64,000 bases of DNA from Escherichia phage Cyrano. Of the stretch, positions 14,757 through 64,000 are shown in pieces (within the stretch, counting starts at the first letter, position 1; each line of letters opens with the position of its first letter). The stretch lies in sequence record OV696614. One strand, given 5' to 3'. A program made the position numbers and the translations under genes. The notes beneath the pieces are model-generated. The model did not search any database. It was not told the origin of the DNA and was given only the letters and a program-made list of their open reading frames with translations.

Positions 14757-17700
14757 ATGAAAGCACTGATGGTTCGAACTGACTTCTCACTTGGGGAGTC
14801 GGCTCTAAAAGCAGAAAACGCGGTGAAGATTGCCAGAGAAGCTGGCTACACCGCTGTAATTTCAGCAGATAGCATGAATATTGCGAGTGTTATTCCACTA
14901 CAACGTGCCGCTGGTGACGACATGGCGGTTATTTGTGGTGTGAAACTAAATATCGTTGATGATCCCACATACGAGCACCGGGCTAAACTTGCTAAAGAAT
15001 CTATGAGATGTATGGAATCATTAGAGCGGGGACGTAACTACTCGTTTACCGCTCTAATTAAAAATGAGCAAGGATATCGCGACATCTGCGAACTAATGAC
15101 GGCGGCCAACACACGAGAACAGTTCTACTTTGTACCGCGTCTCTCGCTCGAACAGTTGGTTTCTACATATGCCAAAGGCAACATCATCCTGCTTACTTCC
15201 GACATCGGTAGCGTGTTCCAACGCAACGATTTTGCAAAAATCATAAGCACACTGATTACAGCGGGTGGAAAAGACAACTTCTATAGTGTGGTTTATCCGC
15301 ACCCTACCCCATTCTACGACCAGATTAACGTCCGGGCGATGAAAGTCGCCAGCGCATTGAAAATAGAGCCAGTGGCGTTCTATCCCGCTTATTACGAATC
15401 GATCGACGATGCAGACATTAAAGACATTGCGCACATGGTTACGAACAACATCAAAATCGACCAGCCGCATCGTCTGCGTATCCCCCACCAGCGAGATAAC
15501 GCCATCAATGGTCGTCGCCATCTCCTTGAGGCGCTTAAAGCCTTCTCCGTTCGCATGGATGTGCCGGTAACAGCTGCAATGGCCTCAACAACGCAGGACT
15601 CCATTATCGATGCCTGCACATGGCGCTGGCATGAATTGCCACCAGCACTGCCCAAGATGGCAGACGACGAACCTGCAACGCTGATGAAACTGGCTGTTGC
15701 AGGGCTGCGTAAACGTCTTACCACAAAAGAGTTTGGATACACACCACCTGCTTCTGAGAACAGGGTTTATGTTGAGCGGCTAAAGTACGAAATGGACACG
15801 CTGACTCGCCTGGGATTCTGTGGTTACTTCCTGATGGTACGCGATCTGATGAATCACAGCCGTGAAACTGGCATTCCTGTCGGGCCTGGTCGTGGTTCCT
15901 CTGCCGGTTCTCTGGTGGCGTGGTGCATAGGCATAACCAACGTCGACCCAATCCGTCACGGTCTTCTGTTTGAGCGTTTCATCAACCCTGAGCGTCTCGA
16001 CTTGCCGGATGCGGACTTGGACTTCAGCCAGGCACGTCGCCATGAGGTGATCGAGTATCTGAATGAACGCTACGGCGAAGATTACGTTGCAGGCATTCCG
16101 AACTTCACCTATCTGGGCGCGGCATCTGCACTACGTGACACCGCTCGTATTTATGGTGTGGAGTCCGCAGATATGGCGGTATCAAAAGAACTGAAGAACG
16201 TCGAGGATGATAGCCTTCCATTGGAAGAGCTGCGCGAACAACTGGCAAGTCTCGACAAATACGCAACAAAATATCCTGATGCATTCAATGCAGCCTGCAA
16301 GTTACAAAGCCTTATGCGTGGCTTTGGTAGACATGCGGCAGGGATGATCGTAGCAGGTGTTCCTCTGACAGAACGTACACCGGTTGAGCGCCGTGGTGAC
16401 GCGCGTTGTATCGCATTTGACAAGCGTTACTGCGAGGCTATGGGCCTAATTAAGCTGGACGTGCTTGGCCTGGCAACTCTCGATTTGCTCGATAGTGCAA
16501 AACGCTACATCAAAGAGAGTACCGGGGAAGACATCAATCTCGACGCTATCCCACTGGACGATCGCAAGGTTCTGGATGGGTTCGCTGCAGGGTACACGCA
16601 GGGCGTATTCCAGCTGGAGTCCGGCCCCATGCGTAAGTTGCTTAAAGATCTGGGCGGTGGCATCGAGCCAATGAGCTTCAAGACCGTTGTCGCCACGACC
16701 GCACTCTTCCGACCAGGCCCGATCCAATCCGGCATGTTGGACGACTATGTCTCCGTGGCCAAAGGCTTCATGGCTCCACATTCAATTCATCCGCGTCTTG
16801 AGGAAGTCACCCGGGAGACTAATGGTGTTTTGCTCTATCAGGAACAAATCATGCAAAGTTCCCGAGTACTTGCCGGGTTCTCTATGGCCGAAGCAGACGC
16901 TCTGCGTTCCGCTATCGGTAAAAAGAACATGGATAAGATGAAAGCGATCGGCAGCGATTTTGTAGAACGAGCACAAGCAGGCTGGGTGACACTGTCACTC
17001 AAAAATGGAGGTACTGTAGAGGTTCACAAACACGCAAAACTGGATTGCTCAGACGGTAAGCGTAGAAGCTACAGCGAGGCTATTAGTGACGGCATAGACT
17101 ACGTGGAGATCGTCTCTGAACAAGAAGGTCTCAGTAAGGAAAAAGCCCAAGAAATATGGGACGCCTTTGAGAAGTTCGGTGGATATGCCTTCAACAAATC
17201 ACACAGTGTTGCTTATTCTTTAATCAGTTATCAGTCTATGTGGCTAAAGACGCACTACCCTGCTGAGTTCTTCGCAGCTGCGCTCACCATTCTGGGCGAG
17301 GATAAGCATCAGGGGCTGGTGAAGGATGCGCTGACCTATGGCATTCGCGTATTGCCACCAGACGTTAATGTGTCATCTAACCGAATTGAGATCCGCACAC
17401 TCGAAGACGGCAGTCAGGCACTGTATGCGCCATTCTCTGCTGTGAAAGGCTGTTCTGAAAATGGTTGTCAGGCAATTATGCGTGCGCGTGAGAAAGTTGG
17501 TGGCAAATTCGAGTCAGTGGCACAATTCGATGAAGCGGTCGAGAAGCGTGCATGTAACAGTCGTGTACGCGAGTCGCTTCATAAAGTAGGGGCTTTTGCG
17601 TCAATTGAGCCAGGCAGTCTGCCAGCAACTGATCCTGAACGACTGCGCGACCAGGCTGAGCTGATGGGCAATCTCATCATTGACGCTGTTAAAGCATCAC

Positions 17701-28150: not shown

Positions 28151-28634
28151 AACCACTGCGGTGAGTAGTCTGCTCACCGCATTCGTATCCAGCTCATTAT
28201 CCACTGTAGTCAGTAACAAAACCTTCCTACATATCTGCTAACCACTGTAGCGAGTAGACAGCCTTTCATTCGCATCAAACAACCACTATGGTGAGTATTG
28301 GAGTGAGATGTCCAGCGGGTATCCACTATGGTGAGTAAGCCTTTGCTGTTTTCAGTGGATATCCACTCGCCACAGTGGATACGCTCAAAGATGAGGGCGA
28401 CAACAACCACTATAGACAGTAAATTTTCCAAGATACCCAGTGACCACTAACCTCGCAGCCCTTGTTTCATCAGTGTTAGTGATCACTAACATTTAATTCA
28501 GTATTTGCATTCTACTGCCTACAGTGGTTATCAACAGATAACGATACTCACTATAGTGGATAGCGAATTACAGATATAAGTAAGGCTCACTACAGTGGAT
28601 AGTGAGCCTTACTACTAACTACAGTGGTTGGGCT
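28151..28634. repeat. Iteron array downstream of repA (incA-like copy-control region)
   Basis: About 7 copies of aaCCACTRYRGTGAGTA then about 4 inverted copies (ctacagtgg / cactatagtgg). Confidence 0.75.
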
Positions 28635-29688
28635 ATTTGCGAGTCTTTGCCTTGCGCAACTCTTCGAGAAGCGCCAGTTCTTCTTTACTCAACATGACCA
28701 TTTTGCCTTCTTTTTCGTCAGGCACAACGTCGATAATGTCATCTTGATTCTCATCTGGGAGGCTATATTCCGTCTCATCATTATCGATTTTTGTTGATAT
28801 TTGTGCCTGGCGTAACTTTGGCCGCCTATAGTGGATGACGAAGTAGACCGAGTTTCCGCGCTTAACTTCCGTGTAATCGAGATATCCTATCTCTCGCAGC
28901 TGTTCCATAGCCTTTCTTACCGTCGCATTCTGAGTAATAGTGCGACTTGTCAGATTAAGTCTGGCGCGTAAACGGGCTAGTGATATTGGTGCCGGATCAG
29001 GCGGCAAACTTTCAATAAAAGTATAAAGCGCCTGAGCGGATTCTTTTCTTGAGAGTTCGTTTATAGCCCGGAGTTGCAGAAGAACCTTTTTGTCGAACTG
29101 GTAGAGTTCGAAAATCTTGGGATCTGCTTTCAGTTCGACCGTATCGTGCTTGACACTATATTTTGCCGTTTGCACAAGATGCGTTACGTAAAACTCATCA
29201 GAGCCTTTGCTACGGAACGAGATGGTATTTGTGGCAATACGGCTTAGCGAACTGTCCAGGCGTTTGCGTAACTTCGCTGATGACCTGGCGGTCGGAATGC
29301 CACACAGCCTTACAAACTCAACGAACGGCAACGTGACAGTATCGCCAACGACCTTGTGTTTGGCAAACGCGTGGATTATTCCCACCCACGTTTTAAAGTC
29401 GTTATCCATATCAAGCCGAAGGCCAGAGATCCTTATGTCTTCGTACCCTTCGGCTTTTGCCAGAGACAGCTGTTTGAGTTCAGCAGAGGCATCCATAGAG
29501 ACCATTTGCCCCTTTCTTCCTCTGGATGTCGATTTCAGCGTCGGAACGAAGAGGCCCAGACGCATCAAAGCAACAGGCTGAACAGTGTTATTAGTGTTAG
29601 GAACCAACGTAACAACTTCGCCTGTCTTTTTATCTGTTTCTGAAAATGCTTCAACGATCGCTATGTTTTTATTGCCGTTTTCGCTCAT
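28633..29688 (-). CDS. repA: Plasmid replication initiator RepA (P1 RepA-like)
   Basis: 351 aa; flanked by iterons; blocks [54 protein letters not shown] match my recollection of phage P1 RepA. Confidence 0.8.
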
Positions 29689-29732
29689 TCCAAATGTCTC
29701 TTGTTATTCGACGGCTTTGGTGGCCTTTGCTG

Positions 29733-29856
29733 ATTACAGTGGATAGTAGCACTCATCACAGCGGTTATCCTACCGTCTATAGTGGTTTTTCTCCTCTCTA
29801 TAGTGGTTGCTTTGCTCCCTATAGTGGATTATTCGCTCTCTATAGTGGATATCGAT
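29733..29856. repeat. Iteron array upstream of repA (origin/incC-like)
   Basis: ctctatagtggWT units at about 22-bp periodicity. Confidence 0.75.
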
Positions 29857-29898
29857 CATGTCTGAAGGCAGATGGCACAACGGTTTGAGGTGGGCGGG

Positions 29899-29971
29899 GA
29901 TCTTATTGGGTCTTTATGGGTCTCTTTGGTTCTCTTTGTGATCTGAATTACTGGATCGGGCCTGTGGATAA
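29899..29971. promoter_or_regulatory. Origin core elements: GATC sites and DnaA box
   Basis: GATC at about 29899, 29940 and 29954; perfect DnaA box tgtggataa at about 29963-29971; AT-rich stretch follows at about 30040-30110. Confidence 0.6.
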
Positions 29972-30129
29972 AAATCAGAGGATTTCAAGAACAGGTAACT
30001 CTACTCTTCTGTGGATATTTAAGGACATAAGAATCATGACTAAGAGTAGAGTTTAAAATATATCTATGTATATCAGTATGTTAATGAAGAATTAAGTCAT
30101 TAAGTTATCCATAAAAGACAATGTGCTCT

Positions 30130-30235
30130 ACTCTCTACAGTGGATATATACAGCTCTCCAGAGTGGTTGTTTTACTCTTCATAGCGGTTATTCAGCTCTC
30201 TACAGAGGTTTCTTTGCTCTCCATAGTGGATGGCA
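30130..30235. repeat. Second iteron array on far side of origin
   Basis: Five units (ctctacagtgg, ctccagagtgg, cttcatagcgg, ctctacagagg, ctccatagtgg) at 22-bp spacing. Confidence 0.7.
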
Positions 30236-62399: not shown

Positions 62400-63120
62400 A
62401 ACAACTGAATAACAGATCAACGAAACGTCAACGCTTTCACCCGATTTGGCCTAAAAAATTGACGTTTTCACACATCACTGCTTATACCCGTAATTCTACG
62501 CAGCAGACAGCACCACAGCGTTCAATTTTCACCACAGACGACTCAACACACTACCAACAAAAACACACGCTCAAAATCGCTCCCGTTGCGTTACATAACC
62601 ATATAAACAACTTATTTTCAGGCATAACAAAACAACTAAATAACACATATGCCATTACCCAAAACAACCAACCTCTTTATGGCAGGCTACCGAAAAGACC
62701 CACCTCTTCTTCCCAGGCTACCGGACAACCAACCTAACTTTCACAGGCAATCCGAAAACATTCATACGCGCGATACCCACGACACGCCATTACCCAAACA
62801 GCGAAGAAACACCAGAATCACTGAAACCCCAACGAAGCCTGTAACCGCAAGGTTTCTCTCAATCCCAAAAGACACGAAACATAACAATCACGGGAAACGC
62901 CATTACCCAATACACGAATAACTACAAAAGCCTTTCACACACTCCAGACAAACAACTCAAACACAATAACGAAAGGAATCGCCCACCTGCCATTACTCCA
63001 TACACGGAGAAGAACAATCACCAAAACGACGAGAACACCCCATAGAAGAACCACCGCAAAACTAACGAAACCACATACACCGACAGAGAAAACAACACAC
63101 CCAATTCACCAACAGAAATA
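62400..63120. repeat. Strand-asymmetric A+C-rich noncoding region with dispersed GCCATTACYC repeats
   Basis: Top strand almost devoid of G and T runs; four copies of gccattac(c/t)c at about 62651, 62786, 62899 and 62989. Confidence 0.5.
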
Positions 63121-63329
63121 GTCGCCGTATAGAACGTTCTGGAAGGAGTGAGCATTAACGCCTATAGAGAGGTTGAAACAGATAAAACACGAAGAAAACA
63201 CAACATGTATAGCGAACAAGACAGGTATGTATAAGTGGGGAGGGAAGGAGGGGTGTCGCCTCCTTTTTCGTATTTATTCAACTCCTGATTTTATCCCCCG
63301 TAACACCCCTACGGTCAGCCTTCGGTCCA

Positions 63330-63475
63330 TACAGGGAAAAGGCTGCATCCCGCTACAGAAACGGCTGGGTTGCCTTCGGGGAACGGCTGGAGGTTTTCAG
63401 GGAAACGGTCGAGTTGCCTGTGTGGATTTCGGGAAAAGGCTCGATGCCGGTTCAGGAACGGCGGCGTACCGGTAT
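63330..63475. repeat. G-rich iteron-like direct repeat array
   Basis: About six units resembling cAGGGAAAcGGCTsG at 22-23 bp periodicity. Confidence 0.5.
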
Positions 63476-63789
63476 AGCGTGAGGGAGAGTTGCGGCTACC
63501 CACCTGTAATGTGCGGGAAGAAGAGAGGCGCTCACGTGCAGGCGAACTTACTTACCGCAGGATTCCCTCTGAATGCCCAACTACAGCGTAATTGTGCCAG
63601 ACAGCCAACGGGCCACAATCGATTTCAGTAGGTTTTCGGGGAGATGATTATTCTGCCCACCAGCCACCTTCGGCCACTAAATCAGAATAATGTAAAAAGT
63701 GTACTCGGTACTGAACCTGAAAACTCACTGCCAAAACCACATTCACCGGAATAAAATCCTTTTTCGCCTTTGCGTTATTGCGATAATAA

Positions 63790-63815: not shown

Positions 63816-64000
63816 GGATTGCTTTATGTTTGCAAATATCGACATCAACCAAATTAAGAAATTGACTCAAAAAGAGTTTGACCAGTTTTATGAGTTAGAA
63901 GGTTGGTCTTCCACTCTGATTAATTCAAGATGGGTGCTGGAACTGATGACTCGTGATGACGCACCTGCTTTGATGATCAGCGACCTGGGTGAAGATGCTG
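63816..64000 (+). CDS. hypothetical protein (3' truncated by window end)
   Basis: ATG at 63816 read by hand, open to the end of the window. Confidence 0.4.

What the first reader, a model, noticed from the sequence alone, without database searches (positions are those of the whole stretch)
63330..63475. Second iteron-like array (G-rich 22-bp repeats) unrelated to the RepA iterons
About six direct repeats resembling cAGGGAAAcGGCTsG at 22-23 bp spacing lie right after the A+C-rich tract. Their sequence differs entirely from the RepA-associated iterons (CTATAGTGG type). This suggests a second protein-binding array: a partition centromere, a second origin, or a packaging recognition site. The overlapping ORF 63173-63631 is probably an artefact of the repeats.
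Basis: seen in the sequence. Interest (0 to 1): 0.55.

Follow-up and report, generated by a model that had tools for sequence, protein, structure and literature searches.

The report
Helically phased protein-binding repeat array
A real, conserved array of six GGGAAA(C/A)GG repeats, spaced in whole turns of the DNA helix, lies in a non-coding part of an SSU5-type phage-plasmid; it has a twin 3 kb downstream and most likely binds a still unidentified protein on the DNA.

Summary
Six same-strand units with the core G(G)GAAA(C/A)GG end at 63342, 63364, 63386, 63408, 63439 and 63461 (gaps 22, 22, 22, 31, 22). The window is an SSU5-like phage-plasmid. The array is conserved and unannotated in 712 plasmid records from Escherichia, Klebsiella, Salmonella, Enterobacter, Citrobacter and Cronobacter.

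New facts:
- A paralogous second array lies about 3.1 kb downstream, outside the window. The two bracket a conserved operon of five small genes of unknown function.
- Each array sits just after a terminator-like hairpin.
- Motif positions follow a 10.8-nt period in both arrays and all lineages (R 0.96 in the window). Indels between lineages change the spacing by about one helical turn.
- Tests for RNA structure were negative on both strands, and Rfam gave no match.
- The overlapping ORF is a composition artefact.

Best reading: a helically phased DNA array that binds a protein and acts in cis with its twin. The exact role is unresolved. My ranking is phage-mode origin or replication control, then operon control by looping, then centromere, then RNA decoy, then packaging site. 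No Rep, Par or terminase gene is adjacent, and RepA varies while the arrays do not.

The parts
63334..63461 (+). Array 1: six direct units with core G(G)GAAA(C/A)GG. Cores at 63334-63342, 63357-63364, 63378-63386, 63400-63408, 63431-63439 and 63454-63461; gaps 22, 22, 22, 31, 22.
   Evidence: Sequence. Clustering against shuffles. Conserved cores with variable spacers in 13 aligned relatives and 26 representative lineages. Period 10.8 nt with R=0.96; 0.34% of random gap sets reach this.
63242..63275 (+). GC-rich hairpin followed by a T-run: a terminator-like element directly upstream of the array. Copy 2 has a homologous one.
   Evidence: Terminator scan. Fold energy -13.9 kcal/mol. Hairpin kept with different stem sequences in other lineages. 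The homologous, clearer terminators before copy 2 have covarying stems.
63290..63327 (+). Conserved lead-in: TTTATCCCCCGTAAC (63290-63304) and two CCTNCGGTC boxes 11 bp apart (63308-63316 and 63319-63327).
   Evidence: Invariant or nearly invariant columns in the alignment. Also present in the distant elements L110 and L099.
63462..63486 (+). Conserved distal edge of the array: CGGCGTACCGGTATAGCGTGAGGGA, containing the GGTATAG and GAGGGA blocks.
   Evidence: Conserved columns. Recurs in all lineages.
63641..63693 (+). Inverted repeat GATTATTCTG...CAGAATAAT with CCACCAGC (the complement of Chi) in its loop at 63655-63662. It lies between array 1 and the operon promoter.
   Evidence: Sequence. 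CTGCCCACCAGC is conserved in most lineages. Absent from the SSU5 subtype, which has a minus-strand ORF there instead.
63779..63787 (+). Extended -10 promoter-like element TGcGATAAT for the downstream operon g1-g5.
   Evidence: Sequence. The block TGCGATAATAACACC is conserved in SSU5 and PhiR41. Inference only; the strict promoter scan did not call it.
63826..64000 (+). Start of g1 (109 aa in relatives, cut by the window end), first gene of the operon bracketed by the two arrays.
   Evidence: Annotated CDS at the same place in p15ODDR (L014 13826-14155). PHROG 7645, unknown function.
62459..63150 (+). Context: A+C-rich tract (A+C 0.6-0.8) carrying four GCCATTACCCA repeats, preceded by TTGACG-17-TTATAC (62459-62487). 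Probably a G/U-poor non-coding transcript that ends at the hairpin before the array.
   Evidence: Composition. Conserved in composition and motifs even in the distant lineage L041.

Best explanation
The array is a cis-acting DNA element. It is a row of binding sites for a sequence-specific protein, laid out on one face of the double helix; the core GGGAAA(C/A)GG recurs at integer multiples of about 10.8 bp.

It is one of two paralogous arrays in the same orientation. The twin lies about 3.1 kb downstream, beyond the window end. Together they bracket a conserved operon of five small genes of unknown function. Each array sits just behind a terminator-like hairpin, which would keep transcription out of it.

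Shown: the repeats, their conservation, the twin, the helical phasing, the phase-preserving indels, the flanking hairpins, and the lack of any RNA-structure signal.

Inferred: a protein, probably encoded by the phage-plasmid backbone, coats each array cooperatively, and the two arrays communicate by looping or handcuffing. Candidates for the protein are the basic 103-aa g2, the 160-aa g5, or the highly conserved 216-aa m2 next to the twin array.

My ranking of the biological role:
- about 0.3: origin or replication control for phage-mode replication, arranged like P1 incC/incA or P4 ori/crr;
- about 0.2: control of the bracketed operon by looping;
- about 0.12: partition centromere;
- about 0.1: an RNA-level role;
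- about 0.05: packaging (terminase recognition) site.

The confidence figure refers to the DNA-level protein-binding array, not to the specific role.
For: - Real and non-random.
- Conserved with invariant cores and drifting spacers in 712 plasmid records of six genera, with no annotated feature under it.
- Whole units are lost in PhiR41 (22 nt) and Cronobacter (23 nt).
- A second paralogous array is found in the same elements, same strand, 3-4 kb away.
- Synteny array1 - g-operon - terminator - array2 - m1/m2 is kept even where the proteins are only 30-60% identical.
- GG[GA]A[AT] sites have a best period of 10.8 nt (mean R 0.90 for copy 1, 0.81 for copy 2, 26 representative arrays each; period 22 gives only about 0.5). 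Pair distances peak near 10.5, 21.7, 31.5, 44, 53 and 66.
- Window array: R 0.96, reached by 0.34% of random gap sets.
- Lineage indels keep the phase: 22 nt in Klebsiella against 31-32 in E. coli and SSU5, 33-34 in copy 2, and 25+28 in L099.
- Both arrays follow a hairpin plus T-run. Copy 2 starts 10-15 nt after a clear terminator and is followed by convergent terminators.
- No excess RNA folding on either strand (mean z -0.09 and -0.21).
- No covariation and no Rfam match.
- The window's repA allele matches far fewer plasmid records than the array region does (385 records with at least 80% coverage against 712), so RepA varies while the arrays do not; the arrays therefore look like part of the conserved phage backbone and are not RepA sites.
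Against: - No Rep, ParA/ParB or terminase gene is adjacent.
- No clear DnaA boxes or GATC cluster, and no strongly AT-rich stretch directly abuts array 1.
- The lineages are related, so the phasing statistics are not independent samples.
- An 11-nt periodicity could partly be a legacy of tandem duplication.
- Transcription of the arrays by terminator read-through is not excluded, because no expression data were available.
Confidence: 0.6

Rival explanations
1. Operon control by looping. The two arrays are operator clusters for a regulator that bridges them, closing a 3-kb loop over the g1-g5 operon and setting its expression. This rival is nested within the DNA-array reading and differs only in the biological role.
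For: Array 1 lies about 320 bp upstream of the conserved extended -10 element of g1, and array 2 lies directly after the operon terminator. The arrays share an orientation and a core motif. Operator-like palindromes and a FljA-family regulator gene lie just beyond array 2.
Against: Arrays of five or six phased direct repeats are unusual for repressors. Array 1 does not overlap the promoter. No regulator has been shown to bind.
Confidence: 0.2
2. Partition centromere. The arrays are the sites on which a centromere-binding protein assembles for segregation of the prophage plasmid.
For: Phased direct repeats of about 11 bp resemble R1 parC, and paired arrays resemble pB171 parC1/parC2 (own knowledge). 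The ParA-like (MipZ/CbiA) gene and its 117-aa partner in the relative show no strong repeat array next to them.
Against: The par cassette is about 43 kb away around the circle, outside the window. It has its own GGCTATAGCC palindromes upstream. No NTPase lies between or beside the arrays. The arrays match about twice as many plasmid records as the window's repA allele, so they track the conserved phage backbone rather than at least that variable plasmid-maintenance gene.
Confidence: 0.12
3. RNA-level element. The array is transcribed by read-through of the upstream terminator and acts as an unstructured, purine-rich decoy or target for an RNA-binding protein, such as the FljA-family protein encoded 1.7 kb beyond array 2, or host CsrA.
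For: Many units read (U/A)CAGGGA or CGGGA, so GGA motifs recur about every 11-22 nt. A full-length FljA-family protein (PF03614, E 9e-81) is encoded nearby, and that family blocks fliC mRNA translation (PMC2652032). E. coli-type copy 2 shares an exact 12-mer, TGAGCCGACGGG followed by GAAAC, with the E. coli fliC 5'UTR. Both arrays have the same sense as the surrounding transcription.
Against: There is no promoter, and copy 2 has no room for one between terminator and array. No match to any Rfam family, including the Csr/Rsm families that Rfam contains (own knowledge), even at E<=10. No folding excess and no covariation. The conserved core is 9 nt, not just GGA. The 10.8-nt quantised spacing has no obvious RNA rationale. 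The FljA-like gene is missing next to m2 in the distant lineage that still has both arrays. The 12-mer occurs only in the E. coli lineage.
Confidence: 0.1
4. Packaging recognition site (pac or cos) bound by the small terminase.
For: Terminase recognition sites often consist of phased short repeats on bent DNA (own knowledge). The arrays carry phased A/T tracts.
Against: The large terminase gene and the genes just upstream of it lie about 13 kb downstream. Two copies 3 kb apart are not expected for a pac site. No data on virion DNA ends were found.
Confidence: 0.05
5. Protein-coding sequence (ORF 63173-63631) or a chance cluster.
For: An open frame of 152 codons spans it.
Against: All three + frames are open because the sequence is T-poor. 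Indels of 9, 22 and 23 nt occur between lineages. PGAP annotates no gene there in most relatives. Clustering is far beyond chance.
Confidence: 0.01

Closest known systems
Iteron arrays flanking a rep gene in P1 and F prophage-plasmids (incC-repA-incA; ori2-repE-incC)
   Same: Five or six degenerate direct repeats at about 22-bp, helically phased spacing. A second array of the same motif lies a few kb away on the other side of a gene block. The element is a low-copy prophage-plasmid.
   Different: No Rep-family gene lies between or beside the arrays. The element's Rep3 RepA has its own, different iterons 34 kb away. No DnaA boxes or GATC cluster. The repeats are more degenerate than classical iterons.
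Phage P4 ori and crr (two clusters of alpha-protein binding repeats 4.5 kb apart, both needed in cis)
   Same: Two repeat clusters with the same motif, a few kb apart, in a phage that can also live as a plasmid (own knowledge).
   Different: The P4 repeats are octamers in mixed orientation bound by a large primase-helicase, and no such protein is encoded next to these arrays.
Phage lambda ori iterons (four 19-bp O-protein sites on bent DNA)
   Same: Comparable number and spacing. Some units are imperfect palindromes, GGGA-N10/11-TCCC: 27 of 143 GGGA sites in copy 1 against 0.2 expected. Phased A tracts.
   Different: The lambda iterons lie inside the O gene next to an AT-rich region. Here the array is intergenic, most units lack the dyad, and no O-like gene is present.
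ParR-type centromeres (R1 parC, pB171 parC1/parC2)
   Same: Direct repeats with an 11-bp period on one DNA face, and paired arrays flanking an operon.
   Different: No parM or parA ATPase lies in the bracketed operon. The only ParA-like gene is about 43 kb away.
CsrB/RsmZ-type protein-sponge RNAs
   Same: Many GGA-containing repeats at 10-25-nt intervals on one strand.
   Different: No promoter, no hairpin-loop presentation, no Rfam match, no folding signal, and the array sits downstream of a terminator.

Membership tests
Rep-type iteron origin or control locus | Tandem direct repeats of 17-22 bp, helically phased | tested here: met
   Six units with gaps 22, 22, 22, 31, 22; best period 10.8 nt, R 0.96; same in 26 lineages.
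Rep-type iteron origin or control locus | Gene for the cognate initiator (Rep with winged-helix domains) adjacent to the iterons | tested here: not met
   Neighbouring genes have no Pfam or NCBIfam Rep domains. The only Rep3 protein is at 28633-29688 with CTATAGTGG iterons. The g2 and g5 models do not resemble Rep.
Rep-type iteron origin or control locus | Adjacent AT-rich unwinding region and DnaA boxes | tested here: inconclusive
   No 9/9 DnaA box. The nearest AT-rich stretch (GC about 0.3) is 300 bp downstream of array 1. A stretch of only moderately lower GC (0.35-0.43) lies 100-400 bp beyond copy 2.
Rep-type iteron origin or control locus | Supports replication, or exerts incompatibility or copy control | not testable with these tools
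   Needs cloning and replication assays.
Partition centromere (parS/parC) | Located next to the parA/parB (or parM/parR) operon it serves | tested here: not met
   The ParA-like (MipZ/CbiA/ParA) 222-aa gene plus its 117-aa partner are at 19.9-20.9 kb of the relative's record, against arrays at 89.7 and 92.9 kb. The two ParB_N proteins are 9 kb downstream, between the helicase gene and the terminase region.
Partition centromere (parS/parC) | Array of repeats bound by the centromere-binding protein | not testable with these tools
   Repeats are present, but binding is untested.
Phage pac/cos site | Adjacent to or inside the small-terminase gene, and coincident with virion DNA ends | tested here: not met
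   The large terminase gene is about 13 kb away. No terminus data were found.
Csr/Rsm sponge RNA | Own promoter and terminator delimiting a small RNA | tested here: not met
   A terminator-like hairpin lies upstream, not downstream. No promoter was called. Copy 2 begins 10-15 nt after a terminator.
Csr/Rsm sponge RNA | GGA motifs presented in hairpin loops, and a match to family covariance models | tested here: not met
   No Rfam hit at E<=10. Folding z about 0. Covariation term +1.17.
Type III toxin-antitoxin (ToxI-like repeats) | Near-identical tandem RNA repeats followed by a terminator and a toxin gene | tested here: not met
   The units are degenerate. The order here is terminator, array, about 320 bp (364 bp to the g1 start codon), promoter, then genes with no toxin family hits.

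The most novel reading that the evidence does not exclude
The arrays are made into RNA by terminator read-through and act as decoys or targets for the phage-plasmid's FljA-family RNA-binding protein. In the E. coli lineage one unit of the twin array copies 12 nt of the host fliC 5'UTR. On this reading the locus would be a phage-encoded RNA-protein switch that also ties prophage state to host flagellin synthesis.
Probability: 0.07. Interest if true: 0.8.

Novelty: new variant of a known kind. Interest (0 to 1): 0.5.

Why it matters
SSU5-like phage-plasmids are common in clinical Escherichia, Klebsiella, Salmonella and Enterobacter and can carry resistance genes. Their lysogeny control, lytic origin and segregation sites are essentially unmapped.

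This work defines a pair of conserved, helically phased cis-elements. They sit around a conserved operon of unknown function, next to an unusual A+C-rich non-coding tract. That gives a concrete, testable handle on how these elements replicate or switch state. It also points to candidate binders (g2, g5, m2, the FljA-like protein) that currently have no assigned function.

Tried and rejected
- Tandem Repeats Finder found nothing because the units are too degenerate.
- Rfam at E<=10 gave only noise.
- Single-sequence folding of 411 nt gave z 0.10 (+ strand) and 0.75 (- strand).
- Array-only folding of 26 representatives gave mean z about 0 on both strands.
- RNAalifold on 8 lineages gave a positive (unfavourable) covariation term. 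Hand-drawn 'GGA in the loop' hairpins and UNCG mini-hairpins are 2-4 bp long and shift register between lineages, so I dropped them.
- An 8-bp closing stem, or Chi pair, CCACCAGC/GCTGGTGG around copy 2 is not kept in L016 and L068.
- m2 has no PDB, Pfam, NCBIfam or PADLOC relative.
- Cumulative GC skew of the whole 112.8-kb relative follows gene orientation and shows no origin signal.
- L099 seemed to place the array in a new gene context, but it is an IS insertion.
- Literature searches found nothing on this locus, and one relevant 2026 preprint was not held.
- The afdb50 fold library was unavailable.

Full report
**What the window is.** The last 1.4 kb of the window is 96.6% identical to Escherichia phage CMS-2020a and about 98% identical to many 100-113-kb non-mobilizable IncFIB E. 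coli plasmids. It is 82% identical, in patches, to Salmonella phage SSU5. The window is therefore part of an SSU5-like phage-plasmid. A close, fully annotated relative, p15ODDR (NZ_MG904996.1), is collinear with it; locus L014 coordinates equal window coordinates minus 50000. I used it as the gene map.

**The observation.** Six units lie on the + strand:
- GGGAAAAGG, 63334-63342
- AGAAACGG, 63357-63364
- GGGGAACGG, 63378-63386
- GGGAAACGG, 63400-63408
- GGGAAAAGG, 63431-63439
- AGGAACGG, 63454-63461

Measured from the terminal GG, the gaps are 22, 22, 22, 31 and 22 nt. The copies are degenerate, so Tandem Repeats Finder reports nothing and the repeat finder gives only weak families. The clustering is nevertheless far beyond chance. 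A 12-nt degenerate consensus hits five times in 110 bp on one strand, against about 25 other hits in the other 128 kb of both strands. In the complete 112.8-kb relative only two such clusters exist. The motif is unrelated to the RepA iterons, which read CTATAGTGG and cluster at 28.2-30.2 kb around the Rep3-family repA gene at 28633-29688.

**It is not coding.** The 152-codon ORF 63173-63631 is an artefact. All three + frames are open across the array in most lineages, because the sequence has few T. Relatives differ by 9-, 22- and 23-nt indels. Genome annotation places no gene there in most relatives.

**Conservation.** A sensitive search finds the 491-bp region in 712 plasmid records. These come from Klebsiella (310), Escherichia (223), Enterobacter (90), Salmonella (44), Citrobacter, Cronobacter and others, nearly all non-mobilizable and mostly about 100-125 kb. 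In an alignment of 13 relatives the cores are invariant or nearly so, while the spacers drift. PhiR41_1 lacks exactly one unit (22 nt) and Cronobacter lacks one (23 nt). All lineages have a 1.5-2-kb gene-free gap here.

**A twin array.** A pattern scan of IMG/VR returned 109 stretches. Many contigs had two hits on the same strand, 3-4 kb apart. Inspection shows a paralogous second array. In p15ODDR it lies at L014 about 16470-16650, equivalent to roughly 66.5 kb and so just beyond the window end. It starts immediately after the stop codon and terminator of the fifth gene downstream.

The homology between the copies extends to the upstream hairpin (TAAG[T/A]GGG.AGGG, stem, CTTTCT). The duplicated unit is therefore 'terminator plus array'.

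Synteny is conserved, and reads in order:
- the A+C-rich tract,
- a hairpin,
- array 1,
- the g1-g5 operon (+ strand),
- a terminator,
- array 2,
- the convergent genes m1 and m2.

It holds even in a distant lineage (L041, L118) whose proteins are only 30-60% identical.

**DNA or RNA?** I took an RNA reading seriously. Many units resemble CsrA-type (A)CAGGGA sites, and a FljA-family gene lies nearby. The tests came out against a structured RNA:
- No Rfam match at E<=10.
- Folding energy equals that of dinucleotide shuffles in the window (z 0.10 and 0.75).
- The same holds in 26 representative arrays on both strands (mean z -0.09 and -0.21).
- The RNAalifold covariation term is unfavourable.
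- No promoter was called between the upstream hairpin and the array.
- In copy 2 only 10-15 nt separate a clear intrinsic terminator from the first unit. In L041 that terminator is GCGTCG-GAAA-CGGCGC followed by T6, and the stems covary between lineages.
- Convergent terminators follow copy 2.

The geometry points to duplex DNA:
- Pairwise distances between GG[GA]A sites peak near 10.5, 21.7, 31.5, 44, 53 and 66 nt.
- A Rayleigh scan gives a best period of 10.8 nt in both copies (mean R 0.90 and 0.81), whereas period 22 gives only about 0.5.
- The six window units give R 0.96 at 10.8 nt, reached by 0.34% of random gap sets.
- Indels between lineages change the spacing by about one helical turn. 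The gap is 22 nt in Klebsiella where E. coli and SSU5 have 31-32. Copy 2 has 33-34-nt gaps. In L099, gaps of 25 and 28 sum to five turns.
- A and T tracts (GGGAAA, GAATTTTC) share this phase, so intrinsic bending is likely.
- A subset of units are imperfect palindromes, GGGA-N10/11-TCCC (27 of 143 GGGA sites against 0.2 expected). Most units are plain direct repeats.

These lineages are related, so the statistics describe the family rather than independent trials. Part of the 11-nt period could be a relic of duplication. The phase-preserving indels are the stronger argument.

**What it is for.** No cognate gene is adjacent.
- The five bracketed genes, and m1 and m2, have no Pfam, NCBIfam, PADLOC or PDB relatives and fall in PHROGs of unknown function.
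- The only ParA-like gene (MipZ/CbiA/ParA hits), with its 117-aa partner, is about 43 kb away around the circle and has its own palindromes upstream.
- Two ParB_N proteins and the terminase lie 9-13 kb downstream.
- The window's repA allele is at least 99% identical in only 63 plasmid records and 80-90% identical in 272, and covers at least 80% of the query in 385. The array region is found in 712 records with an unchanged core.

From the last point, the arrays look like part of the conserved phage backbone, not of the variable plasmid-maintenance part, and they are not RepA sites.

That shifts the odds towards a phage-mode function. The candidates are a second (lytic) origin or its control, by analogy with P1 incC/incA, F ori2/incC or P4 ori/crr, or looping control of the bracketed early operon. 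The operon's conserved extended -10 element, TGcGATAAT, lies at 63779-63787, about 320 bp from array 1.

A centromere or packaging role is less likely but not excluded.

**Candidate binders.**
- m2 is 216 aa and is the best-conserved neighbour. It could not be modelled under the tool's restrictions.

None of this identifies the binder.

**The FljA lead.** A full-length FljA-family protein (PF03614, E 9e-81) is encoded 1.7 kb beyond array 2. This family blocks translation of fliC mRNA (PMC2652032). The E. coli-type copy 2 shares an exact 12-mer, TGAGCCGACGGG followed by GAAAC, with the E. coli fliC 5'UTR. I estimate the chance of such a match at about 1e-3, but I noticed it post hoc. It is confined to the E. 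coli lineage. The FljA-like gene is also absent next to m2 in the distant lineage, which still has both arrays. I keep this as the low-probability, high-interest reading.

**Verdict.** The repeats are real, conserved, non-coding and unrelated to the RepA iterons. They are best explained as a helically phased DNA array that binds a protein and works in cis with a twin array. I found no annotation or literature for this element. It works like iteron or centromere arrays, but it fails the adjacency criteria for membership in either family.

Noticed in passing
window 62459-63275: An A+C-rich, G/T-poor tract of about 800 bp (A+C 0.6-0.8) is conserved in composition in every lineage, including distant ones. 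It carries four copies of GCCATTACCCA(A/C)A (62651, 62788, 62899, 62989) and a conserved block AATCGCTCCCGTTGCGTTA (62576-62596). It is preceded by a conserved TTGACG-17-TTATAC (62459-62487) and ends at the hairpin 63242-63268. It looks like a non-coding transcript of about 770 nt, which could be a Rho- or Hfq-type binding platform or an insulator for the array.
   Followed up: partly
L014 16470-16650 (equivalent to about 66.5 kb, beyond the window end): Paralogous second array of GGGAAACGG units, directly after the terminator of the fifth downstream gene. It is present in all lineages examined.
   Followed up: yes
window 63655-63662 (within inverted repeat 63641-63693): CCACCAGC, the complement of Chi, is conserved in most lineages. 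Copy 2 is flanked by CCACCAGC on the 5' side and GCTGGTGG on the 3' side. It is either a weak long-range pairing or oriented Chi sites, and it is not kept in every lineage.
   Followed up: partly
L014 16552-16575 versus L125 340-365 (E. coli fliC 5'UTR): An exact 12-mer, TGAGCCGACGGG followed by GAAAC, is shared between the E. coli-type twin array and the host fliC leader. It occurs only in the E. coli lineage.
   Followed up: partly
L014 18308-18832 (minus strand): A full-length FljA-family protein ('repressor of phase-1 flagellin', PF03614, with a weak Hfq-like hit) is encoded in the phage-plasmid. It is also present in relatives found in Klebsiella (non-motile, own knowledge), so it probably has a phage-internal target.
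   Followed up: partly
L014 16724-16800: An 18-bp perfect palindrome, TAATCACATATGTGATTA, with further TGTGAT/ACGCG repeats lies in the convergent intergenic region after the twin array. It looks like an operator.
   Followed up: no
window 28633-29688 and 28200-30230: The repA allele (Rep3 family) with CTATAGTGG iterons on both sides is shared at 99% or more by only 63 plasmid records, although about 170 records share the array region at 95% or more. The replication module has been swapped among otherwise near-identical phage-plasmids.
   Followed up: partly
window 63308-63327: Two CCTNCGGTC boxes exactly 11 bp apart lie just before the array. They are conserved across lineages, with the N varying (A, T, C or G). 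They may be a separate small binding site.
   Followed up: no
L099 700-2540: In one 145-kb relative, a transposase-like ORF pair on the opposite strand, which I judged by eye to be an IS21-like element (not run against any family library), has inserted about 60 bp after the array. The array itself is left intact.
   Followed up: yes
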